From: Leptolyngbyales cyanobacterium
Lineage (GTDB): Bacteria; Cyanobacteriota; Cyanobacteriia; Leptolyngbyales; Leptolyngbyaceae
Reading direction: 5' to 3'
Assembly (NCBI GenBank): GCA_038208945.1
Contig: JBBQYE010000001.1
Coordinates: forward strand, 1 to 59,099
Length of the DNA: 59,099 nt
Shown: piece after piece, positions 34,254 to 45,457 of the stretch
Position numbering within the stretch: position 1 is the stretch's first letter
Layout: each line of letters starts with the position of its first letter
Notes under the pieces: model-generated
What the model was told of the DNA's origin: nothing
The model's database searches: none
What the model saw: only the letters and a program-made list of their open reading frames with translations
Translations under genes and position numbers: made by a program

Positions 34254-35609
34254 GTGGAAGACGTAGAACTGACTCTAACACCAGACGATTACAGTCTTCT
34301 TACTGACCTCTATCAACTGACGATGGCAGCCTGCTATGTCGGCGAAAACATCGACCAGCGCCGTGCCAGCTTTGAGATTACCGTCCGTCGATTGCCGCCT
34401 CAGTGCGGATACTTGATTGCGATGGGGCTTGCTCAAGCGCTGGACTACTTAGAGAAATTTCGATTCAGTGCTGCTCAGGTTGAAGCGCTTCAGTCGATCG
34501 GCATTTTTGACCACGCCCCCGCTCGGTTTTGGACTCTGCTGCGAGAAGCTCAGTTTAGTGGCGATGTTTGGGCAGTGCCAGAAGGAACCGCCATCTTCGC
34601 TAACGAACCCTTGCTGCGGATAGAAGCCCCGCTCTGGCAAGCGCAACTCGTCGAAACTTATCTATTAAACACGCTGAACTATCAAACACTGGTGGCGACT
34701 CGATCGGCGCGAATGCGTGACGTAGCGGGAGCAGACGCAACTCTATTAGAGTTTGGCACTCGCAGAGCCTTTAGTCCCCAGGGTGCTTTGTGGGCGGCTC
34801 GTGCAGCCCTCGCAGCAGGATTAGATGCCACGTCTAACGTGTTAGCTGCTGTCAAACTAGGACGCGTCCCGTCTGGCACGATAGCACACGCGCTCGTGAT
34901 GGCATTGAGCGCAACAGAAGGCACTGAGGCAGAGGCATTTACGGCATTTCATCGCTACTTTCCCGGCGCGCCGCTGTTGATTGATACCTATGACACGATC
35001 GCGGCGGCTCATGCCTTATCCGACCAAATCAAAGCGGGGAATCTTCAGCTATCGGCGGTGCGAATCGATTCAGGTGATTTGGGGTCGCTATCTCAGCAGG
35101 TGCGGGCAATATTGCCAGGAGTCGCCATCATTGCAAGCGGTGACTTGGATGAATGGAGGATTGCTGAACTTAAGGCGGCAGGAGCCTGTATCGATGGGTA
35201 TGGAATTGGAACGCAGCTTGTGACAGGTTCTCCGGTAAATGGAGTCTATAAACTGGTGGAAATTGGCGACATTCCGGTGATGAAAGAGTCTCCTGGCAAG
35301 ATTACCTATCCAGGGCGGAAGCAGATTTTTCGTCGTGTTGAGAACGGAATCGTGCAGCGCGATCGTTTAGGTTTAATCCACGAAACTCCTGATCACGAAC
35401 AGCCTTTAATGCAGCTTGTTTTCAAGCAGGGGCAGCGAATGCAAGAATCAGACAGTTTGAGTACGATCGCTGAACGAACCCGCGACTCTGTTGCCAGTTT
35501 GCCTCCCTCCGTTCGAGATATCGATCAGCCCAAATCCATTCCGTTAGATCTATCTGATCATCTGTCTGCTCTAATCGAAAAAACTCGACGAAAAACAGTC
35601 GAGTCGTGA
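34254..35609 (+). CDS. pncB: Nicotinate phosphoribosyltransferase
   Basis: LLTDLYQLTM, EFGTRRA, LIDTYDT, VRIDSGD and GVYKLV. Confidence 0.95.
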   Translation: MEDVELTLTPDDYSLLTDLYQLTMAACYVGENIDQRRASFEITVRRLPPQCGYLIAMGLAQALDYLEKFRFSAAQVEALQSIGIFDHAPARFWTLLREAQFSGDVWAVPEGTAIFANEPLLRIEAPLWQAQLVETYLLNTLNYQTLVATRSARMRDVAGADATLLEFGTRRAFSPQGALWAARAALAAGLDATSNVLAAVKLGRVPSGTIAHALVMALSATEGTEAEAFTAFHRYFPGAPLLIDTYDTIAAAHALSDQIKAGNLQLSAVRIDSGDLGSLSQQVRAILPGVAIIASGDLDEWRIAELKAAGACIDGYGIGTQLVTGSPVNGVYKLVEIGDIPVMKESPGKITYPGRKQIFRRVENGIVQRDRLGLIHETPDHEQPLMQLVFKQGQRMQESDSLSTIAERTRDSVASLPPSVRDIDQPKSIPLDLSDHLSALIEKTRRKTVES

Positions 35610-35649
35610 ACGTTTTGGGATCAAAGATTCTCCTTCACCCGTCTAACTT

Positions 35650-36246
35650 ATGTTAAGAGTTGCTTTGTTTGGCACTAGCGCTGACCCACCTACAAGAGGA
35701 CATCTTGCCATCTTGTGCTGGCTCTCTCAGCACTTTGATCAGGTCGCGGTGTGGGCATCTGATAACCCATTTAAGTCTCACCAAACAGCGTTAGATCATC
35801 GGACTGAGATGTTGCGACTGCTGATCAGCGACTTGAATTTTCCCCGACAGAATATTCAGGTGTATCCAGAGTTGAGCAATTCTCGCACGGTGGTCACGGT
35901 TGAACGGGCGCAGGAACTCTGGCAGAGTGCAGAATTTACGCTGGTGGTCGGGTCTGATTTGGTGCGTCAACTGCCAAAATGGTTTCGGGCGAGAGACTTG
36001 CTCGATCGAGTCAAACTCTTAGTGGTGCCCCGACCTGGATACTCAATTTCAGACAGCGAGTTAGACCCGTTGAGGCAGATCGGAGCCGATGTAACGATCG
36101 CCGATCTCAATGCCCCAAACGTCTCATCTACCGCCTATCGTGAGCAGGGAGAAACCGAAGGAGTGACTTCTCTGATTCAGGCTTATATCGATCGGGAGCA
36201 ATTGTACAGATGTCACGCACGCAGAGAAAAATTGCCCACTTATTGA
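35650..36246 (+). CDS. nadD: Nicotinate-nucleotide adenylyltransferase
   Basis: FGTSADPPT.GH, VGSD and VSST.YR. Confidence 0.92.
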   Translation: MLRVALFGTSADPPTRGHLAILCWLSQHFDQVAVWASDNPFKSHQTALDHRTEMLRLLISDLNFPRQNIQVYPELSNSRTVVTVERAQELWQSAEFTLVVGSDLVRQLPKWFRARDLLDRVKLLVVPRPGYSISDSELDPLRQIGADVTIADLNAPNVSSTAYREQGETEGVTSLIQAYIDREQLYRCHARREKLPTY

Positions 36247-36953
36247 AGGGAGAGGCGTTAGCAGATTTTAGAGTGGGCGTTGATAACGCAATCTTCTCAG
36301 TCGATACCGCGCTGAATCGGCTGCTGGTGCTGCTGGTGATGCGCCAAGAAGAACCCTTTTTGGGACAGTGGAGTCTGCCCGGAACGCTGGTCAGACAGGG
36401 CGAATCGCTAGAGAATGCCGCCTATCGAATCTTGGCTGAAAAGATTCGGGTGCGAAATCTCTATCTAGAGCAACTCTACACGTTTGGCGGTCCAAATCGT
36501 GATCCGCGTGAGGCAGATGATAGCTATGGTGTTCGCTACTTGTCGGTTAGCTATTTTGCGCTGGTGCGCTATGCCGAAGCTGAACTGATTGCCGATGGTG
36601 TGAGCGGCATTGCCTGGTATCCGTTAGATCAGTTGCCGCAGTTGGCATTTGACCACAACACGATTTTGGAATATGGACATTGCCGACTCAAAAATAAGCT
36701 GGAATACAGTCCCGTCGCGTTTGATGTGTTGCCCGAAGTTTTTACGCTGAGTGATTTGTTCCAGCTTTATACAACGGTGCTGGGAGAAAACTTCTCAGAT
36801 TATTCAAACTTCCGATCGCGCTTGCTCAAACTCGGCTTTCTCAGAGACACGGGGATCAAAGCCTCACGGGGGGCGGGTCGTCCAGCGAGTCTCTATCGAT
36901 TTGATGCAGAAGCCTTTGCTCCTCTAAAAGACAAACCCTTGGTATTTATTTGA
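36210..36953 (+). CDS. nrtR: NUDIX-wHTH transcriptional regulator NrtR
   Basis: NUDIX-like WSLPG, EQLYTF...RDPR, LAFDH and C-terminal GRPA.LYRF. Confidence 0.9.
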   Translation: MSRTQRKIAHLLKGEALADFRVGVDNAIFSVDTALNRLLVLLVMRQEEPFLGQWSLPGTLVRQGESLENAAYRILAEKIRVRNLYLEQLYTFGGPNRDPREADDSYGVRYLSVSYFALVRYAEAELIADGVSGIAWYPLDQLPQLAFDHNTILEYGHCRLKNKLEYSPVAFDVLPEVFTLSDLFQLYTTVLGENFSDYSNFRSRLLKLGFLRDTGIKASRGAGRPASLYRFDAEAFAPLKDKPLVFI

Positions 36954-36975
36954 CGGTTAGAAAAGGAGGCTGACG

Positions 36976-38694
36976 GTGAAGATTGCGATCGCTCAACTCA
37001 ACCCGACGATCGGGGATTTAGACGGAAATGCTCAACGAATCTTAAACGCCGCGCAACGAGCCGCGAGTGAGGGAGTGCGATTGCTGCTTACGCCAGAGTT
37101 GTCGTTGTGCGGATATCCGCCGCGCGATTTGTTGCTCGATCCCAGTTTTGTCGAGATGATGACTCGAACGCTGTTAACGCTGGCTGAAACGTTGCCGACG
37201 GGCGTTGCGGTTTTAGTCGGAACCGTGGAACCGAATCCTCGATCGCACCAAAATGGTGGCAAACCTCTGTTCAATAGCGTTGCTCTCTTAGAACAGGGAA
37301 CCATTCAACAAATCTTTCACAAACGGCTGTTGCCAACCTATGACGTGTTTGATGAAGACCGCTATTTTGAACCTGGAAACGAGTCAAACCAGTTCACCTT
37401 AGAGCATTTGGGGCAGTCGGTTCGGATGGGTGTCACCATTTGCGAAGACCTTTGGAATGATGAAGAGTTTTGGGGTAAACGGACGTATACGCTGAACCCG
37501 ATCGCCGATCTTGCTCAACAAGGTGTTGATTTCACGATTAATCTGTCGGCATCTCCTTATACGGTCGGTAAACAACGGCTGCGAGAAGCGATGCTGCAAC
37601 ATGGAGCCGTCAGATTCGATCAGCCGATCGTTTATGCCAATCAAGTGGGCGGCAATGACGATCTAATTTTTGATGGTAGTAGTGTCGCCGTCGATCGTCA
37701 CGGAAATCTAGTGTGTCGTGCCCGTGCTTTTGATGAAGATTGGGTCGAGATCGACTACAATCCCGACACTCAGGATTTTCTGCCTAGCTCGATCGCGCCT
37801 GCTCCCGACTGTGACGAAGCCGAAATTTGGGCAGCGCTGGTAATGGGCGTGCGGGATTATGCTCGCAAGTGTGGCTTTTCAAAAGTTGTGTTGGGGTTAA
37901 GTGGCGGCATTGATTCGGCTCTAGTTGCTGCGATCGCTGCCTCTGCTCTCGGTGCTGAGAATGTGCTGGGTGTCTTGATGCCTTCGCCCTACAGTTCTGA
38001 TCACTCCGTTGACGATGCGTTAGAACTTGCTAGAAATATTGGGATTAAGACTCAGACATTGGCGATCGCGAATCTCATGCAAAGTTACGACCAAACCCTA
38101 GAAGACTTATTTGCCGGGACAGAGTTTGGCATCGCAGAAGAGAATCTTCAGTCTCGAATTCGGGGCACGTTGTTGATGGCAATCTCCAACAAATTTGGCT
38201 ATTTGCTCGTCTCTACGGGCAACAAATCTGAGATGGCGGTCGGCTACTGCACGCTATACGGCGACATGAACGGAGGACTGGCAGCGATCGCAGATGTCCC
38301 TAAAACCCGCGTCTACTCCATCTGCAAATGGTTGGGTTCTGACATCATTCCTGCCCACATCGTCACCAAAGCACCCAGCGCTGAGTTAAAGCCAGGGCAG
38401 GTGGATCAAGACTCGCTGCCAGCCTACGAGATTTTGGACGACATTCTCGATCGCTTGATTCATCAACACCAGTCCGCTACCGAAATCGTTGCTGCTGGAC
38501 ATGAGCAAGTTATTGTCGATCGCATCATCAAACTCGTAACCATTGCAGAATTCAAGCGTCGCCAAGCGCCACCGGGACTGAAAATCACCGATCGCGCGTT
38601 TGGTACGGGCTGGAGAATGCCGATCGCCACTAAATGGATTTCTCGAACTGCGAGAGCGATCGATCCTGTGAAACAACCCTCTCAGCCTGTTTGA
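36976..38694 (+). CDS. nadE: Glutamine-dependent NAD+ synthetase
   Basis: Nitrilase domain (PE, K, ICED) plus GLSGGIDS, TGNKSE and EFKRRQAPP. Confidence 0.96.
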   Translation: MKIAIAQLNPTIGDLDGNAQRILNAAQRAASEGVRLLLTPELSLCGYPPRDLLLDPSFVEMMTRTLLTLAETLPTGVAVLVGTVEPNPRSHQNGGKPLFNSVALLEQGTIQQIFHKRLLPTYDVFDEDRYFEPGNESNQFTLEHLGQSVRMGVTICEDLWNDEEFWGKRTYTLNPIADLAQQGVDFTINLSASPYTVGKQRLREAMLQHGAVRFDQPIVYANQVGGNDDLIFDGSSVAVDRHGNLVCRARAFDEDWVEIDYNPDTQDFLPSSIAPAPDCDEAEIWAALVMGVRDYARKCGFSKVVLGLSGGIDSALVAAIAASALGAENVLGVLMPSPYSSDHSVDDALELARNIGIKTQTLAIANLMQSYDQTLEDLFAGTEFGIAEENLQSRIRGTLLMAISNKFGYLLVSTGNKSEMAVGYCTLYGDMNGGLAAIADVPKTRVYSICKWLGSDIIPAHIVTKAPSAELKPGQVDQDSLPAYEILDDILDRLIHQHQSATEIVAAGHEQVIVDRIIKLVTIAEFKRRQAPPGLKITDRAFGTGWRMPIATKWISRTARAIDPVKQPSQPV

Positions 38695-38762
38695 CTTGGA
38701 GACTATTCAAGGATTGCTTCACATCCCAAGCGGTAATCGGCGGCTCCCTAAAGCCCGACTTC

Positions 38763-39134
38763 CTAGAGTTGAATGGTGATTTTGTTGTGCAATTCCTCCA
38801 CTCGAATCAGTGAACCGTTACCCAGGACAATGTTGAACTTCACTAGCGATCGTTCAACTTGATATCCCGGCAACACTCGAACAATCTGATACTCCGTCGT
38901 CAAATCACTCGTGCCGTCCCATTTAAGGAATGCCAGTTGATTGGACGCAACCTCACTCAGTTGCGAAACAAAGTCTTCAATCACATCGCTAACATTCGGA
39001 ATAATGCCAGACGATAGGAAGATATAACGCTCTTGCAAATCTAACGTAATGCTAACTCGATAACGTTTTTCGGTTGAGCATCGCAACTCAACCGTGAACG
39101 AAATCGAGCTAGGAATCACAGTCCTAACTCCCAT
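38763..39134 (-). CDS. Hypothetical protein, 123 aa, no recognisable family
   Basis: ATG with a GAGAGG RBS that is embedded in a 13-bp perfect inverted repeat. Confidence 0.65.
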   Translation of the reverse strand: MGVRTVIPSSISFTVELRCSTEKRYRVSITLDLQERYIFLSSGIIPNVSDVIEDFVSQLSEVASNQLAFLKWDGTSDLTTEYQIVRVLPGYQVERSLVKFNIVLGNGSLIRVEELHNKITIQL

Positions 39135-39151
39135 AGTTTTTGTCCTCTCGG

Positions 39152-39271
39152 TTAATTCAAAGAGGACAAAAACACTGATTTCTCAGACGGTCTGTAGGGG
39201 AGAAAAATGGTTGCAGGATCTTGATTCCAGCCTTTCAAGATCCCATAGCAAAGCTGACGGTGTACAATCAT
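39152..39271 (-). CDS. Putative 39-aa leader peptide
   Basis: GGAGG RBS; MIVHRQLCYGILKGWNQDPATIFLPYRPSEKSVFLSSLN; stop codon lies in the loop of the RBS-sequestering hairpin. Confidence 0.45.
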   Translation of the reverse strand: MIVHRQLCYGILKGWNQDPATIFLPYRPSEKSVFLSSLN

Positions 39272-39274
39272 GAA

Positions 39275-39392
39275 CGCCTCCTGAGTTAATGCTAGTAACT
39301 AGGGATGGAAGTCCTCGGAGTCTGATCGGCAAATCAGATTTCGGGGCATAACTTCATCACTGCGATGTATTCTACAAGAGTTTTTGGTTTTT
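39275..39392 (+). ncRNA. Candidate antisense RNA
   Basis: TACAAT -10-like box at 39263-39268; hairpin 39304-39358 whose mismatches are G-U pairs on the plus strand only; T-tracts downstream. Confidence 0.35.
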
Positions 39393-39571
39393 TGGAATGC
39401 TGAATTTTTGAGGCGCGTTGCCTTCGGCTCTTGCAAAGCCGATCGTTGTTTTGGGAAAGTGCGAGGCGATTAGCCGATCGGGGAACTGCGAAGCGATCGT
39501 TTCTCTAGGATCTCTGATGAAAAGTGAAGGCAGATATAAAGTTTCGGGGTATCTGCCCAAATCAGGGCGAT

Positions 39572-39605
39572 ATACGGAAACTTTTCGTATAATCAATAGT
39601 TAGCC
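39572..39605 (+). mobile_element. attI-like integron recombination site
   Basis: GTATAAT-caata-GTTAGCC has the 7-5-7 simple-site spacing and sits at the 5' boundary of the first cassette. Confidence 0.6.
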
Positions 39606-39772
39606 ATCTTCTTCCTCCGGTTAAGGCAGTAGCTTGAAGGTTAACTGTGGGGCATTATCTTCTGTAATGTGTTCAGGATATTCCTGAAATGGGCACTCTA
39701 GTACTGATAGGTATAAGAAGCATTCGGAACCATTATCTAAAAGTTCAATTAAACCGCATAGGAAGAAGTGAA

Positions 39773-42700
39773 ATGGACATCGCTCGACAGCTAGCTGAGA
39801 AATACCCTAATCTTTTTGATCCATTGGTTAATTCATACTGGGAAGCTGAACCAGCTAGTAAAGAGTATCGAAAGCTAAGTAAAGTAATCAAGCAATTACT
39901 CGGTCAAGACGATCATCACGCAGAAATGATACAAATGCGTCTTGGCAACCAAACTTTACAAGCTATTGGTGATCAGTTCAACTTAACCCGTGAACGTGTC
40001 CGTCAAATAATCATTAAGTATGACAGTTATATAACCAATATTGATGTTGGTTCAAAAGAATGGTGTATTAGATTAGTCAACCAGCTACTTAGATCCCAAG
40101 CTGATCCCAAAAAACTTCCCTCAAATGAAGAGTTAGAAAATCTTCATTTGAAGCTCACAGGTGCTCTTAGAGAGCATTTCACATCAGCAAAGAAGTATGG
40201 CAAGCTAAATGAAAAAAATCGGTTAGAGCTTGTCAAATTATTTGAACTTGATGTTGATTCTGAAGTTAAAAATCACCGATCTTGGTCTCTAGAACGATTG
40301 ATTTACGACGTTCGAGAGTTTGCAAAGCAAATTGGTAAGCCTGATTTTATGCCCATGCAGCTAGAAATGGCTGAGTATGGACGAAGTGATTTAAGGGGTG
40401 TGATTCAGCGATTTGGTGGTCAATCCAAAGTTGCAGAACTTTCTGGACTCAGGTATCAAGGGCAAACCGTTGCACCTGACGGTTCACGTACTTATTGGAC
40501 TGAAGAGCGCATTCGGGCTTTTCTTTATGAAGTTGCTGAAAAAGAAGGGCATCCCGGTTATATGCCTACTCAAGCAGACTGCGTCAAATATTCACAGAAG
40601 CAGAACGCAAGCATACTTTCTATTTTTACTCGTGCGTTCACACCAAAAGAACCTACTCTGAGTTGGCTTGATGTCGCTCAAAAATATGGACTTAAATATG
40701 ACTCTGAATACCATAGAGTTACTATTGCCTACATTCGTTCATTTGTTAAGTCATTAGGTGATGCTCTCTATAACCTTACACCTGCTGAAATTTATGTCTT
40801 ATTTGAGCAGCAAGGAATAAACAAAGCTGGTGGAAATACGAATATAAGAACGTTTGATAATCTTGTCCACGCAATTCAAACCGGAAATTTGCCTAGAGAG
40901 GAGATAGAAAAGTGGGCAAACGGCGGCAGCAGTCATATTACACAAGCGCTTCTTGATCCTGAGAACAAAACGGTTGAAGAAGCATTTTCAAAAGCTGATA
41001 ATTTCTTAAATAAGGTTAGCCATAAAAACAAGAAAGACAACCTTAATGATGAGTCTTATAAAGAAGATCTAACTCAAGATTTACCTATAACAAGAGTTTC
41101 AGACACTTTAAGTTCTCTTGCTAAAATTACAGATATCCTAATTGACGGATCTAGCGATGAAGAGGCTATTAAATTCCTGATTTCTAAGGCAATAGCAAAA
41201 CTTTGGAAGCGTTGCTTCTATGAGGAAGAAAAGGCTTTAATAGAAGCGAAGCAGCATAAAGGAAATATTTATAGCGAGGCAGTGCGAGATACTTTCATTG
41301 ATGAATACACACGTTGCAAGCAGTTACCTCTGCCTGAAGGTTACTCGTTTATAGATTTGAGTGGAATCAGGCGTGAGCCTAAACTCATGCAAAGACTAAT
41401 TTCTTACCGTGTCTTGAAAGATGGTCGTGTTCTTAACCTCAGCGGTACTGGTACGGGTAAGACTTTATCAGCAGTTCTTGCGAGTCGTGTGATTGGTTCT
41501 CAACTAACAGTCATCGCTTGTCCTAACGCTACAATTGATGGCTGGGCTACAACGATTAGAAGTGCTTTCGCAAAGTCCGAAATTGCTTCAAAAAGTTGGA
41601 CTCCTATTTGGTCAACTGAAGGATTACCGCGTTATTTACTGATAAATCATGAGATGTTTCAGAATCGCTTTGAAGGTTTAATTAAGCGATTTATTAACAA
41701 CAATGCTATAGATTTTGTTGTTATAGATGAATTACATCAGGTAAAACAAAGGGATGAAGATCTTGAAACTCAGCGTCGTAGATTGATAAATGGTTTAATT
41801 ACCGATGTTCCAGAGGATAGACCAAAACCTCGTGTACTAGGAATGTCTGCGACACCAGTTGTTAACAATCTGTATGAAGGTAAATCTTTAGTTGAGTTGG
41901 TAAGTAGTCTGCGTCATGATGATATTGGTACGGCAACAAATATTCATAATTGCATGAAGCTCTATCAGAAGTTCACTACAATGGGCTTCCGAATGGTGCC
42001 TCAAAATCAAATTTCTCGCACCCCACAAATTCATCCGGTTGACTGTACTCCCTATCTCGAAGATTTATTTGCGCTAGGACACCATCCCCATCCTCAGCAA
42101 GTAGAAGCAATCCTAGTTCGCGCTCGTTGGTCTATCATTCGACAGCATCTTCGGACAAAAACAGTCATTTTTACTGAGTATGTAAAAGATATTGTCCCGT
42201 ACCTGGTTCAGCAGATCAAGCAAGCAGGAATGTCTGTTGGTGTCTATACAGGTAACGACAAATATGCCACGGAAGCAGGCTATAAGGATATGCTGGAGCA
42301 GTTTCTGAAAGGCGATGTTGAGATTTTAGTGGCATCAATTAAGTGTCTTGGTACTGGTGTCGATGGGCTTCAGCTTGTTTCTAATAATATAATTTTTGCT
42401 ACTTTGCCCTGGACTAGCACTGACTATGAGCAGGCAATCGGTCGTTTTGATCGCGAAGGGTTTGTGTTCGATAAGCTTGATATCCATATTCCTAAAACTT
42501 ATGCGATTCTAAGTGATGGTAAGGAATGGAGTTGGTGCGAGTCTAAACTACTCCGGCTTGAAAATAAGCGAGATATTGCAAAAGCGGCCGTCGATGGAGA
42601 AATACCCGATAGTAATAGCCAGTTGACCCCAGCAAAAGCTACTCAATATTTGTTGGGATGGCTGAGAAGGTTAAGTGAAGAAGGGCTGAATGAAATTGAA

Positions 42701-43363
42701 CGCAAACAAATTCGAGTTCCTCTAGATGAAGCAAGCGATGCTGAAGTTTCTCACCGCTATGCATCTTACGGTGATTTTGCAACACTGAATGCTCGTTGGA
42801 ATAACTCTCATTCTAGTGTTACTTATGAACGGCTTAGTAAAAACTCAGAAGAATGGTGTTATTACCACACTCGAATGGATGAACTTGAGGCTTCTTGGCA
42901 AGTAGTTCCGCGTGAACAGTGTGTTCAACATCTCACGGAAAATTTACCTTCAGGTTCCGTTATTGGAGACTTTGGCTGTGGTCAAGCAAAATTAGCTGAA
43001 GCCTTGAGGGAGGTTCACACTGTTCACTCCTTTGATCATGTTGCAATAACTCGAAGCGTAGTTGCCAGTGATATGGCTAATACGCCCCTAGATGATGCAA
43101 CACTAGATGCTGCTGTCTTCAGCCTCTCTTTAATGGGAGCCAACATCAAAGACTATATTGCAGAAGCATACCGTACCCTAAAGCCTGGTGGTCAATTGCT
43201 CATCTATCATCCCGCTAAACATCATGACAGGCTTAAATTTGTCGAAGGATTAAACCATTTAGGTTTGGCTATAGTTCAGCATGACGAAATCTACAAGTGG
43301 CATTATATTTGGGCAATTAAACAAGGTCGTCAAGAGAATCCATCTGCTGATGTGAGTTTTTAA
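39773..43363 (+). CDS. Sigma70-r4-like HTH + helical repeats + SF2 helicase + Rrp8-like SAM methyltransferase fusion
   Basis: TLQAIGDQFNLTRERVRQI; GTGTGKT, IDELHQ, GMSATP, TGVDG, QAIGRFDR; IGDFGCGQAKLA, AVFSLSLMG, RTLKPGG. The ORF opens at 39689 but ATG 39773 has the better RBS. Confidence 0.88.
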   Translation: MDIARQLAEKYPNLFDPLVNSYWEAEPASKEYRKLSKVIKQLLGQDDHHAEMIQMRLGNQTLQAIGDQFNLTRERVRQIIIKYDSYITNIDVGSKEWCIRLVNQLLRSQADPKKLPSNEELENLHLKLTGALREHFTSAKKYGKLNEKNRLELVKLFELDVDSEVKNHRSWSLERLIYDVREFAKQIGKPDFMPMQLEMAEYGRSDLRGVIQRFGGQSKVAELSGLRYQGQTVAPDGSRTYWTEERIRAFLYEVAEKEGHPGYMPTQADCVKYSQKQNASILSIFTRAFTPKEPTLSWLDVAQKYGLKYDSEYHRVTIAYIRSFVKSLGDALYNLTPAEIYVLFEQQGINKAGGNTNIRTFDNLVHAIQTGNLPREEIEKWANGGSSHITQALLDPENKTVEEAFSKADNFLNKVSHKNKKDNLNDESYKEDLTQDLPITRVSDTLSSLAKITDILIDGSSDEEAIKFLISKAIAKLWKRCFYEEEKALIEAKQHKGNIYSEAVRDTFIDEYTRCKQLPLPEGYSFIDLSGIRREPKLMQRLISYRVLKDGRVLNLSGTGTGKTLSAVLASRVIGSQLTVIACPNATIDGWATTIRSAFAKSEIASKSWTPIWSTEGLPRYLLINHEMFQNRFEGLIKRFINNNAIDFVVIDELHQVKQRDEDLETQRRRLINGLITDVPEDRPKPRVLGMSATPVVNNLYEGKSLVELVSSLRHDDIGTATNIHNCMKLYQKFTTMGFRMVPQNQISRTPQIHPVDCTPYLEDLFALGHHPHPQQVEAILVRARWSIIRQHLRTKTVIFTEYVKDIVPYLVQQIKQAGMSVGVYTGNDKYATEAGYKDMLEQFLKGDVEILVASIKCLGTGVDGLQLVSNNIIFATLPWTSTDYEQAIGRFDREGFVFDKLDIHIPKTYAILSDGKEWSWCESKLLRLENKRDIAKAAVDGEIPDSNSQLTPAKATQYLLGWLRRLSEEGLNEIERKQIRVPLDEASDAEVSHRYASYGDFATLNARWNNSHSSVTYERLSKNSEEWCYYHTRMDELEASWQVVPREQCVQHLTENLPSGSVIGDFGCGQAKLAEALREVHTVHSFDHVAITRSVVASDMANTPLDDATLDAAVFSLSLMGANIKDYIAEAYRTLKPGGQLLIYHPAKHHDRLKFVEGLNHLGLAIVQHDEIYKWHYIWAIKQGRQENPSADVSF

Positions 43364-43399
43364 CCATAAGCGAGTAGTTTGCGCTAGAGTACGCCAGAT

Positions 43400-43485
43400 G
43401 GCTAACACTGCGTTGGTGCGGACGGAACGAAGGCTATCTGTGGGAGTTCAAGGTTGTCTGCCGCCGCACAACTTCACCGTTGGGT
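43400..43485 (+). mobile_element. attC site 1 (86 bp)
   Basis: R'' GGCTAAC, 5-nt spacer, L'' GTTGGTGC ... L' GCACAAC, 6-nt spacer, R' GTTGGGT; two extrahelical bases at the expected positions. Confidence 0.85.
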
Positions 43486-43595
43486 TGCCTCTATCAAAGG
43501 GCGCAAAGTGTTGGTGTTTCCTAGCTGTTTGCGTTTTTTCGATCGCGACCTCCCGATCGTTCATCAAACTTTGGATTTGATCAAAATCAGGTGAG
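43479..43595 (+). repeat. 117-bp direct repeat, copy 1
   Basis: Near-identical to 44984-45100. Confidence 0.93.
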
Positions 43596-43735
43596 TGCGA
43601 TCGCCGATCTTGTAGGTTGGATTGACCCAGAAAACCAAACCACTTCTCGTTTGCTCCCCATCATTGCTTCGATAACTGCCCACTACATTGCTCAGGTTAA
43701 AATGTAGGGGCTAAAGTTGAAACGAGGTCAAACTC

Positions 43736-44008
43736 ATGACAGTTCGACAGCCCCGCTACAGCAAAGAAGAATTCGCTCGACGGGGTGATGAGATTTATGA
43801 ATCTCAGGTGCGTTCCCAAGTCGAAGAAAGCAATTATGGCAAGATTGTGGAGATCGACATTGAGACAGGCGCTTTTGAGGTAGCTGATACGCCTATGGTC
43901 GCAGTCGATCGACTTTATGAACGTGAACCCGATGCTCAACCCTGGGTGATTCGGATTGGACATCGCGCCTTTTACCACTTCGGTTCGTGGAGTCTGAAGC
44001 AGAATTAA
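43736..44008 (+). CDS. Small conserved protein (DUF5678-like; usually partnered with a clan AA aspartyl protease)
   Basis: GAGG RBS; EEFARRGDEIYE...GKIV.IDIETG.FEV. Confidence 0.8.
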   Translation: MTVRQPRYSKEEFARRGDEIYESQVRSQVEESNYGKIVEIDIETGAFEVADTPMVAVDRLYEREPDAQPWVIRIGHRAFYHFGSWSLKQN

Positions 44009-44023
44009 GGAATCGGTGGGGCA

Positions 44024-44050
44024 TGGTCTAATCAATGGTTAGAACCGCGA
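44024..44050 (+). mobile_element. Collapsed/degenerate attC remnant
   Basis: GGTCTAAT-caatg-GTTTAGAACCG shortly after a stop codon; the first part equals the R'' of the attC at 44904. Confidence 0.45.
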
Positions 44051-44224
44051 TGAGAGTCCTAGCACTTCGATCTCTTAGAGTAAAATCGCTGCTACAGGGA
44101 TTAGAAGTTCCTGAACTAACCCATTAGGCTAATTGGTAGAATAAGTGGACGCTAGCGGTCGCCCCCATGCGACAAGCCAGCATCCGCAGCCTTTTCACCT
44201 AATCTCGGAAAAGGAGATTCTCAG

Positions 44225-44443
44225 ATGCCATTAGCTGAACTCATGTCACAAATCCAGAATCTTCCAAAAATTGACAAGCTTCGGCTGATGCAGTTCCTTG
44301 CAACAGAACTGGTCAAAGAAGAAGATGCAAACTTCTTTGTTGCCAACCAAGAATATCCTGTCTGGTCGCCCTACAATTGCTCTGAGGCTGCCAATGTTCT
44401 AATGAATCTTCTGGATACAAAGCGACAAGAGCAGAATGGTTGA
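44225..44443 (+). CDS. Small antitoxin-like hypothetical protein
   Basis: AGGAGA RBS; 72 aa (DKLRLMQFL..EL, YPVWSPY); stop overlaps the next start. Confidence 0.8.
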   Translation: MPLAELMSQIQNLPKIDKLRLMQFLATELVKEEDANFFVANQEYPVWSPYNCSEAANVLMNLLDTKRQEQNG

Positions 44444-44855
44444 CACTCGAATATTTCCCTACAAAATCATTGACAGAAGTCTTGGCATGGTCGATCGAAT
44501 GCCTTATCTGCCTTTGACACTCAGTCTTAATGGTCAATTCCTGAACGCTGAAGGCTTATTAGATACAGGCGCAAGCGTCAACGTTTTGCCCTATGAGTTG
44601 GGGCTACAACTGGGTTTAATCTGGGAGGATGAGACGCTTTCGGTTCTATTGGCAGGAAACTTGGCTCGATTTGAAGCTCGCGCAGTCATTGTTGATGCTC
44701 AAATTAGTTCATTCCCAACGGTTAACCTAGCATTTGCCTGGACACAAGCGGTCGATGTGCCGATGATCTTGGGGCAAGCCAATTTCTTCTTTGAGTTTGA
44801 TGTCTGTTTCTTTCGTGCGCGTTCTGAATTTGAAGTCTGCCCTAAAGCAGGTTGA
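44436..44855 (+). CDS. Retropepsin-like (clan AA) aspartyl protease
   Basis: LLDTGAS catalytic motif and ILGQ..FF motif. Confidence 0.85.
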   Translation: MVDTRIFPYKIIDRSLGMVDRMPYLPLTLSLNGQFLNAEGLLDTGASVNVLPYELGLQLGLIWEDETLSVLLAGNLARFEARAVIVDAQISSFPTVNLAFAWTQAVDVPMILGQANFFFEFDVCFFRARSEFEVCPKAG

Positions 44856-44903
44856 ATAGAAATAAAGGCAAGAAGGTCAGTTGGACGCGCTCGGTGAGGC
44901 ACG

Positions 44904-44990
44904 GTCTAATAATTCAAATGCAGCGGACGCATGAGAGCCGCTAGTGCTGAGTCTGAGTTTGTCTGCTGCCGCTGATTTGAGCCGTTGGGC
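44904..44990 (+). mobile_element. attC site 2 (87 bp; R'' ends in AAT instead of AAC)
   Basis: R'' GTCTAAT, 5-nt spacer, L'' AAATGCAG ... L' CTGATTT, 5-nt spacer, R' GTTGGGC. Confidence 0.8.
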
Positions 44991-45100
44991 TGCATCTCGC
45001 AAGGGGCGCACAGTGTTGGTGTTTCCTAGCTGTTTGCGTTTTTTCGATCGCAGCCTCCCGATCGTTCATCAAACTTTGAATCTGATCAAAATCAGGTGAG
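44984..45100 (+). repeat. 117-bp direct repeat, copy 2
   Basis: Near-identical to 43479-43595. Confidence 0.93.
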
Positions 45101-45124
45101 CATCACAAGTCGTACAATCCCTTC

Positions 45125-45457
45125 ATGTACGATGACACTTGCCGATTCCTTGCCGAACACTTCTCCGCCGACTTTGCCAGTTGGCTGTTGGGATCGATCG
45201 CCCTGACCAAAATCAAACCGTCTGAGCTTTCCCTCGAACCAATTCGCGCCGATGCCCTAATTCTGCTTCAGTGCGATGAGTCTGTTTTGCACCTGGAATT
45301 TCAAACTCGTCCTGACCCAGAGATTCCCTTCCGCATGGTAGATTACCGCACACGAGTGTACAGACACGATCGCTTTAACACAACCCCTCAGCCACTCCAC
45401 ACGAAGGCTAAGACAGATGCTGAAGAAGCCACTAGAGCTGTTCGTCGAGAGATTTAG
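45125..45457 (+). pseudogene. Truncated Rpn / PD-(D/E)XK putative transposase (DUF4351-type) fragment
   Basis: YDDTCRFLAE, ELSLEPIRAD, LHLEFQT and FRMVDY; similarity is lost after about residue 80. Confidence 0.8.

What the first reader, a model, noticed from the sequence alone, without database searches (positions are those of the whole stretch)
39572..45100. Integron-like cassette array (attI plus attC sites) with no integrase in the window
Seen: two 86-87-bp imperfect palindromes (43400-43485, 44904-44990) with full attC anatomy (R''-spacer-L''...L'-spacer-GTTRRRY, extrahelical bases), each a short distance after a stop codon. There is also a collapsed third site at about 44024-44050 and a 7-5-7 site GTATAAT-caata-GTTAGCC at the start of the array. 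All genes in the array are co-oriented. Established: this is the layout of integron gene cassettes, and arrays without intI are called CALINs. Inference: a cyanobacterial CALIN between nadE and sir that seems to have kept its attI, so an integrase encoded elsewhere could still act on it.
Basis: partly seen in the sequence, partly recalled or inferred. Interest (0 to 1): 0.85.

Follow-up and report, generated by a model that had tools for sequence, protein, structure and literature searches.

The report
Integrase-less integron copied across cyanobacterial genomes
This is a real gene-cassette array (integron) that has lost its integrase gene but kept its insertion site, and it is one of many such platforms per genome in this cyanobacterial genus, which carry the same two-gene tail of unknown function, so these cells likely serve many cassette-capture sites from a few shared integrases.

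Summary
Confirmed. An attC model built only from relatives scores both palindromes at 54 and 67 bits; nothing else in the window is significant. The attI matches attI sites of intact integrons up to the crossover, and cassette 1 has perfectly complementary ends. A congener has a full intI at this same nadE–sir site with other cassettes, so this is an integron that lost intI. The third site is a truncated attI (ΔattI) rather than a collapsed attC. The only intI in this 65%-complete genome is truncated.

New: where intI would end lies a ~730-bp tail with a 39-aa and a 123-aa ORF (dN/dS 0.13, no family or fold match). It is largely genus-restricted, with 4–21 matches per genome. 21 of 28 copies in two near-complete genomes head a correctly oriented attC array, and 53 of 63 copies lack intI. 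The window's deletion junction recurs at 11 loci in 7 genomes. Likely a dispersed set of integron landing pads served in trans; how they spread is not shown. CALINs and cyanobacterial integrons are known.

The parts
38724..39455 (-). Multicopy tail module that lies directly behind the intI 3' end in intact platforms of the genus
   Evidence: 3 further copies in this genome at 84-89%; 4-21 matches per genome in 8 of 8 genus genomes, 0 of 33 others; abuts intI in G001, G002, G003, G004, G005, G007
38763..39134 (-). 123-aa ORF of unknown function, under purifying selection
   Evidence: dN/dS 0.13 over 54 copies, 1 with an internal stop; no Pfam, NCBIfam or PADLOC hit; model pLDDT 87 without a clear fold match
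39152..39271 (-). 39-aa ORF with a GGAGG ribosome-binding site; a hairpin just after it covers the start region of the 123-aa ORF
   Evidence: 39 aa long in 62 of 65 copies that keep the RBS-ATG, of 72 upstream regions examined; coordinates; hairpin I13
39456..39527 (+). Scar where intI is deleted (HIP1-like GCGATCG, then a GATC junction into the old intI promoter region)
   Evidence: Comparison with intI-bearing platforms L068 and L104; same junction at 11 loci in 7 genomes
39528..39605 (+). attI region; simple site 39587-39605, inferred crossover between 39599 and 39600
   Evidence: 86-88% to the attI of intI-bearing platforms, homology ends at GTT; different cassettes follow the same site in relatives
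39600..43479 (+). Cassette 1 (3,880 bp): SF2 helicase-methyltransferase fusion, ORF 39773-43363 (1,196 aa; 1,224 aa from the upstream ATG 39689)
   Evidence: First and last 11 bases perfectly complementary; Pfam Sigma70_r4, DEAD/ResIII, Helicase_C, Methyltransf_8; GC 0.38-0.43 against about 0.49
43400..43485 (+). attC1
   Evidence: 54.3 bits, model R1
43480..44038 (+). Cassette 2: 116-bp leader, 90-aa ORF 43736-44008, ends in a truncated attI
   Evidence: 94% to a cassette of G001 that has an extra gene and a normal attC
44026..44044 (+). Third site: attI-core remnant (ΔattI type) behind a normal cassette end
   Evidence: 15 of 17 bases equal the attI core, 3 matches in 6.0 Mb; spanned by contigs of runs X1 and X3
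44039..44984 (+). Cassette 3: 72-aa ORF 44225-44443 and 139-aa aspartyl-protease-like ORF 44436-44855 (PADLOC candidate PDC-M52A/B)
   Evidence: PADLOC E 8e-12 and 4e-53; Pfam Asp_protease_2; 85% to a cassette earlier in the G001 array
44904..44990 (+). attC2 (R'' ends AAT)
   Evidence: 67.2 bits, model R1
44985..45373 (+). Truncated last cassette: second copy of the 116-bp leader and the start of an Rpn-family ORF, joined to sir upstream DNA at CGATCGC (45367-45373)
   Evidence: Leader 91% to the first copy; TIGR01784 over residues 3-81 only; homology to G003, G005, G006 resumes at 45361-45368

Best explanation
The locus is a chromosomal integron whose intI gene is deleted but whose attI and cassette array remain, and it is one of many sister platforms in the genus that carry the same two-ORF tail and are likely served in trans by the few platforms that keep intI. 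Shown: attC sites, attI, deletion scar, full intI at the same site in G005, cassette turnover among relatives, and the tail-attI-array layout at many loci. Inferred: a cognate IntI made elsewhere would excise cassettes at attC1 or attC2 and insert new ones at the G|TT of this attI, which is how the 3.9-kb helicase cassette would have come first. Inferred: the near-identical tails act as homology arms, so attI/intI types are swapped between existing loci by recombination. Not explained: how new loci are seeded and what the two small proteins do; the most likely role is an independently selected two-gene unit (leader peptide or antitoxin plus protein) that keeps the platform from being lost.
For: attC and attI tests. 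G005: nadE, tail, full intI, other cassettes, sir. G001 shares two cassettes in reverse order. Tail heads a right-strand attC within 6 kb in 21 of 28 copies in G005 and G007 (13 of 28 counting only attC not used to train the model), far side 1 of 28, wrong strand 0, chance about 1-2%; held-out loci 11 of 19 and 13 of 19 distinct metagenome loci. Of 63 tail ends 6 lead into full-length intI (one frameshifted), 4 into pieces, 53 into none. Same deletion junction at 11 loci in 7 genomes; a second junction at 8 loci of G007. At nadE, four genomes carry different platform types. Tail copies group by genome, not by locus. Runs X1 and X3 hold near-identical nadE, cassette 3 and sir pieces and a contig with about 1.2 kb between tail and this attI type, whose attI-side end matches the intI promoter region.
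Against: No intact intI found in this assembly. No recombination was measured; the changed cassette order could come from homologous recombination, and the M52 cassette has a different attC body in G001. attI is said to be recognised only by its cognate integrase (PMC2095811, abstract start in listing), and tail-linked IntI proteins are only 61-97% identical to the G005 one, so not every integrase need serve this site. 7 of 28 tails have no attC nearby, one intI of G007 has no tail, and 13 of 24 and 9 of 18 attC clusters lack a tail. attC sites are found in 41 of 41 family genomes, most of them in genera where the tail was not found, so dispersal does not need it. No promoter-like site found near attI.
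Confidence: 0.68

Rival explanations
1. A dead remnant: the array is a frozen CALIN left after intI loss, one of many decaying integrons, and nothing acts on it now.
For: Only a truncated intI in the assembly; attC2 has a mismatch in the conserved triplet; last cassette truncated; 53 of 63 tails lack intI and 25 of 63 lack an attI-type motif.
Against: The attI core is unchanged across 7 genomes and followed by different cassettes; cassette 1 ends are perfectly complementary; the assembly is 65% complete; related populations likely hold an intI-bearing platform of this attI type.
Confidence: 0.2
2. The tail-attI unit is a non-autonomous mobile element: the intI-less platform is copied to new chromosomal sites as a unit, by IntI in trans or with help from the 123-aa protein.
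For: One deletion junction at 7 or more different flanks across 7 genomes and another at 8 loci of one genome; 16 copies from relatives lie at 13 sites where G000 has no tail; tail ends in a short hairpin after which homology stops.
Against: No transposase, terminal repeats or target duplication seen; junctions are ragged. Gene conversion between tails explains the shared junctions without new insertions. All four G000 sites are shared with other species. The one distant homologue seen in context (G119) stands alone, with no intI or attC near it.
Confidence: 0.25
3. The tail is an independent repeated two-gene unit that became linked to one ancestral integron by chance and has no bearing on cassette capture.
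For: It stays under selection where intI is gone; a stand-alone homologue with a similar upstream small ORF exists in G119; other genera have many attC without it.
Against: It abuts IntI proteins as far apart as 61-67% identity, which needs repeated coupling or exchange; spacing and orientation to intI are fixed.
Confidence: 0.35

Closest known systems
CALIN (cluster of attC sites lacking integron-integrase), Cury et al. 2016, PMC4889954 (passages read)
   Same: Two or more attC on one strand, no neighbouring intI; loss of intI is one of the four origins the paper lists, and it discusses action of an integrase elsewhere.
   Different: The origin is demonstrated here by the orthologous full integron; attI is identified and kept (the paper notes attI is unknown for most integrons); the same deletion recurs at many loci with a conserved tail.
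Sedentary chromosomal integrons of Xanthomonas, bioRxiv 10.1101/2025.06.18.660453 (passages read)
   Same: Genus-wide integron, short arrays, CALINs at other loci.
   Different: There intI sits at one locus (ilvD) and CALINs at seven loci across species; here intI-bearing and intI-less platforms occur at many loci per genome, 38 different flanks among 54 copies.
Cyanobacterial attC sites, Ghaly et al. 2021, PMC8352920 and PMC9176274 (passages read)
   Same: Cyanobacteria are one of 11 taxa with a modelled chromosomal attC family.
   Different: Their model could not be run here; the passages seen say nothing on attI, platform number or a tail module.
Unusual ΔattI-type gene cassettes of class 1 and 2 integrons, PMC12901181 (abstract, section 5 and passages read)
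   Same: attC-ORF-ΔattI architecture with only the attI core before the crossover; shown there to be IntI1 substrates.
   Different: Described from clinical mobile integrons; here in a chromosomal cyanobacterial array, with two mismatches to the cognate attI and no activity test.

Membership tests
CALIN | At least two attC sites, same strand, within 4 kb | tested here: met
   Two hits, 54 and 67 bits, 1.4 kb apart, genus-built model; IntegronFinder's own model was not available
CALIN | No intI nearby | tested here: met
   TIGR02249 and tblastn find only contig C85
Complete integron | intI in cis | tested here: not met
   Deleted; scar at 39456-39527
Complete integron | attI site | tested here: met
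   Matches attI of intI-bearing platforms up to the GTT
Complete integron | Cassette promoter Pc | tested here: inconclusive
   0 sigma-70-type sites in 38650-39800; the scan does not cover other promoter types
Complete integron | IntI-mediated excision and insertion | not testable with these tools
   Only indirect: cassette content and order differ in relatives
attC site | Bottom-strand hairpin with covarying stems and extrahelical bases | tested here: met
   94.6% of 520 cells paired, 12 of 18 pairs with two-sided changes, slid controls 21-41% (structure drawn from these sequences); window sites fit the model
attC site | Third site has L boxes and a stem | tested here: not met
   Not hit by R1; fold z -0.29
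ΔattI-type cassette | attC-ORF-truncated attI architecture | tested here: met
   15 of 17 bases equal the attI core, preceded by a cassette-end motif
ΔattI-type cassette | Substrate for the integrase | not testable with these tools
   Needs a recombination assay
Transposon, IS or MITE (for the tail-attI unit) | Transposase, terminal inverted repeats, target duplication | tested here: inconclusive
   None recognised in family scans or junction listings; no close empty-site pairs were available
Transposon, IS or MITE (for the tail-attI unit) | Present at some sites and absent at the same sites in relatives | tested here: met
   16 of 22 testable copies at sites without a tail in G000; the filter misses shared sites
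PADLOC candidate system PDC-M52 | Adjacent M52A and M52B genes | tested here: met
   E 8e-12 and 4e-53
PADLOC candidate system PDC-M52 | Anti-phage activity | not testable with these tools
   A candidate label only

The most novel reading that the evidence does not exclude
This genus has turned the integron platform into a self-spreading, non-autonomous element: a tail-attI landing pad without integrase is copied to 10-20 chromosomal sites and fed by a few integrase-bearing copies, and the 39-aa and 123-aa proteins (no known family or clear fold match) are a previously unknown integron accessory that moves or stabilises the platform.
Probability: 0.22. Interest if true: 0.82.

Novelty: new variant of a known kind. 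Interest (0 to 1): 0.55.

Why it matters
How CALINs arise and whether they stay usable is open (PMC4889954 lists four possible origins). Here the origin of one CALIN is read directly from relatives, a cyanobacterial attI is defined, and the genus offers dozens of natural variants of one platform with and without intI. That makes action in trans, attI-integrase specificity and platform spread testable in culturable cyanobacteria. A conserved unstudied gene pair fixed behind intI would be a new integron-associated part. If the tail proves a bystander, what remains is a well-documented but ordinary CALIN.

Tried and rejected
Folding energy as proof of attC: not significant. Rfam: no match. A hand-made hairpin scan also picked terminators, so a covariance model was used. 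The 116-bp duplicated leader as a chromosomal array end: rejected, it follows attI directly in G003 and attC sites elsewhere. Cassette leaders as decayed attC halves: weak (mean score 21.0 against 19.9 shuffled, 41 of 63 higher). Helicase gene as a general cassette family: 4 full-length and 1 partial homologue loci had no attC or intI hit (the model is genus-tuned). Function of the 123-aa protein: nothing clear from Pfam, NCBIfam, PADLOC, PHROGs (best E 0.033), PDB sequences, Foldseek, VIA (best Z 4.4) or the Atlas via a homologue; this does not show a new fold. Not found in plasmids or viral contigs; no metagenome loci for the distant homologue. Complex prediction of the two small proteins gave no answer. 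RNA run X19 held only scattered contigs, no expression evidence. Lack of cover over cassette 1 in X1 and X3 is not itself evidence. Earlier-findings look-ups returned nothing.
Full report
Observation. Their folding energies are unremarkable (z -0.75 and -1.36), so I built a covariance model from 29 attC-like sites of three congeneric genomes, none from the window. In that alignment 94.6% of 520 cells pair and 12 of 18 pairs show two-sided changes, against 21-41% for slid controls (I drew the structure from these sequences, so the controls flatter it). The model scores attC1 at 54.3 and attC2 at 67.2 bits, with nothing else significant in the window, and finds 10 sites in the assembly at E 0.1 or less (150 of 839 candidates scored).

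attI. Window 39500-39602 matches 8 of 8 genus genomes, among them the site beside an intact intI in G007, and most matches stop at the GTT; different cassettes follow the same core in different loci. The first 11 bases of cassette 1 are the exact reverse complement of the 11 bases ending in R'' of attC1, as expected for an inserted circular cassette (established integron anatomy, recalled). The third site (44026-44044) is not an attC. It equals the attI core at 15 of 17 bases, a pattern found 3 times in 6.0 Mb, follows a normal cassette end, and is spanned by near-identical contigs of runs X1 and X3, so it is no assembly error. It fits the attC-ORF-ΔattI cassettes described for class 1 and 2 integrons (PMC12901181; abstract, section 5 and passages read). 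A deletion from R'' to R' of an attC that happens to mimic attI cannot be excluded.

Origin. In G005 a full intI lies between nadE and sir, followed by different cassettes. G001 has an array before sir that shares two cassettes with the window in reverse order, one with an extra gene and one with another attC body; homologous recombination could also have produced this. The window has lost intI between the tail and the old intI promoter region. The assembly holds only a truncated intI, on C85, itself before an array, but it is 65% complete, and 24 of 41 genomes searched have a match over the family cut-off. In runs X1 and X3, which hold near-identical nadE, cassette 3 and sir pieces, a 1,273-base contig runs from the tail through about 1.2 kb of other DNA to this attI type, and its attI-side end matches the intI promoter region. 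It likely carries intI; I could not read those letters or place the contig at nadE.

The tail. It has 4-21 matches per genome in 8 of 8 genus genomes and none in 33 others. In 401 class-wide genomes, the only clear match outside the genus was one stand-alone copy in G119, with no intI or attC near it. Sources label homologues as Phormidesmis, so that is likely the genus. The 123-aa ORF is under purifying selection (dN/dS 0.13, 54 copies); the 39-aa ORF keeps its length in 62 of 65 copies with the RBS. A confident model (pLDDT 87) gave no clear fold match.

Link to integrons. In G005 and G007, 21 of 28 tail copies have a right-strand attC within 6 kb on the array side; 13 of 28 counting only sites not used for training; 1 of 28 on the far side; chance about 1-2% (I merged two pieces of one G007 copy, dropped one 25-residue G005 fragment and one reverse-strand duplicate hit; attC lists are lower bounds). 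Held-out tests gave 11 of 19 genome loci (one had only 1.1 kb of array side, two had far-side hits) and 13 of 19 distinct metagenome loci with 1.5 kb or more (17 of 36 dropped as duplicates or short, three of the short ones running into an intI 3' end). Of 63 tail ends, 6 lead into full-length intI, 4 into pieces, 53 into none, and 38 have an attI-type motif (motifs defined from the same sequences; 3 of 2,000 random stretches have one). The window's deletion junction occurs at 11 loci in 7 genomes, with at least 7 different flanks, and a second junction at 8 loci, all in G007. Tail copies group by genome (15 of 16 G007 copies in one clade; 18 label changes against 33 shuffled), and the nadE copies of G002 and G007 sit with their own genome's copies. 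Sixteen of 22 testable copies lie at 13 sites where G000 has no tail (67 examined; the filter misses shared sites, three of the 16 are the C85 site, and all four G000 sites are shared with other species).

Against over-reading. attC sites of this family occur in 41 of 41 family genomes, 3-91 each, mostly in genera where the tail was not found, so scattered arrays are not special to this genus. About half of the attC clusters in G005 and G007 have no tail and one intI has none. No transposase, terminal repeat or target duplication was seen. No recombination or expression was measured.

Mechanism. Best reading (0.68): an intI-deleted integron that keeps a usable attI and is one of many landing pads served by a cognate IntI in trans; tails likely serve as homology arms for swapping platform types between loci. 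Cassette insertion at G|TT and excision at attC follow from established integron biology; action in trans, swapping, and any role of the two small proteins are inference. Rivals are a dead remnant (0.2), a mobile non-autonomous unit (0.25) and a bystander tail (0.35); the last two concern the tail and are not exclusive of the main reading.

Cargo. Cassette 1 is unusually long (3,880 bp) and encodes a helicase-methyltransferase fusion with many homologues (1,101 at E 0.001 or less among 7,986 scored); five homologue loci elsewhere were not in a cassette by my model. Cassette 3 matches the PADLOC candidate PDC-M52A/B. A defence role for both is a guess.

Literature. CALINs, their possible origins and cyanobacterial integrons are in print: PMC4889954, PMC8618304, PMC8352920, PMC9176274 and bioRxiv 10.1101/2025.06.18.660453 (passages read). 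Ten searches showed no paper on integrons of this genus, a cyanobacterial attI, or a conserved tail behind intI; the library lacks most subscription journals, and I read no supplements, where genome-wide CALIN tables may list these loci. Verdict: real, a new variant of a known kind, interest 0.55.

Noticed in passing
L001:2198-2370 (G000 C85); also L005, L032, L068, L074, L078, L080: A gene-less cassette of about 70 bp whose body is itself a hairpin, followed by a long attC, sits in first position right after attI in many platforms of the genus.
   Followed up: no
L010-L028, between intI start and attI: Cyanobacterial attI regions carry tandem dyad units of about 30 bp in variable number (a few to many), possibly extra integrase binding sites.
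   Followed up: no
window 45367-45373 and 39493-39499: Both the array end and the intI deletion scar lie at HIP1-like CGATCG sites; the array end is at the same place in G001, G003, G005, G006. No control for HIP1 abundance was run.
   Followed up: partly
L029, L030, L032, L034, L099-L101: nadE and sir are adjacent across the array only in the window and G005; in G001, G002, G003 and G007 other genes follow the nadE-side tail or array, which suggests rearrangements at tails or arrays.
   Followed up: partly
L002:7867-9415 (G000 C85): Second platform in this genome: truncated intI with no tail, gene-less cassette and a 152-aa cassette; at the same site G003, G004 and G005 have the tail with the intI deletion.
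   Followed up: partly
all attC in alignment A2 and the window: The first extrahelical base is usually a C on the bottom strand, not the G I recall from Vibrio and class 1 sites.
   Followed up: no
G023 contigs C8, C17, C31, C65: In another genus, five C-terminal intI remnants (about residues 271-314) beside one full intI suggest the same multi-platform, intI-loss pattern without this tail.
   Followed up: no
L114:1150-1500 (G119): The stand-alone distant homologue also has a short upstream ORF with a similar start and a shared GAGGACTTCC motif, so the two-ORF unit is older than its link to intI.
   Followed up: partly
window 34254-38694: NAD salvage cluster pncB-nadD-nrtR-nadE, ordinary.
   Followed up: no
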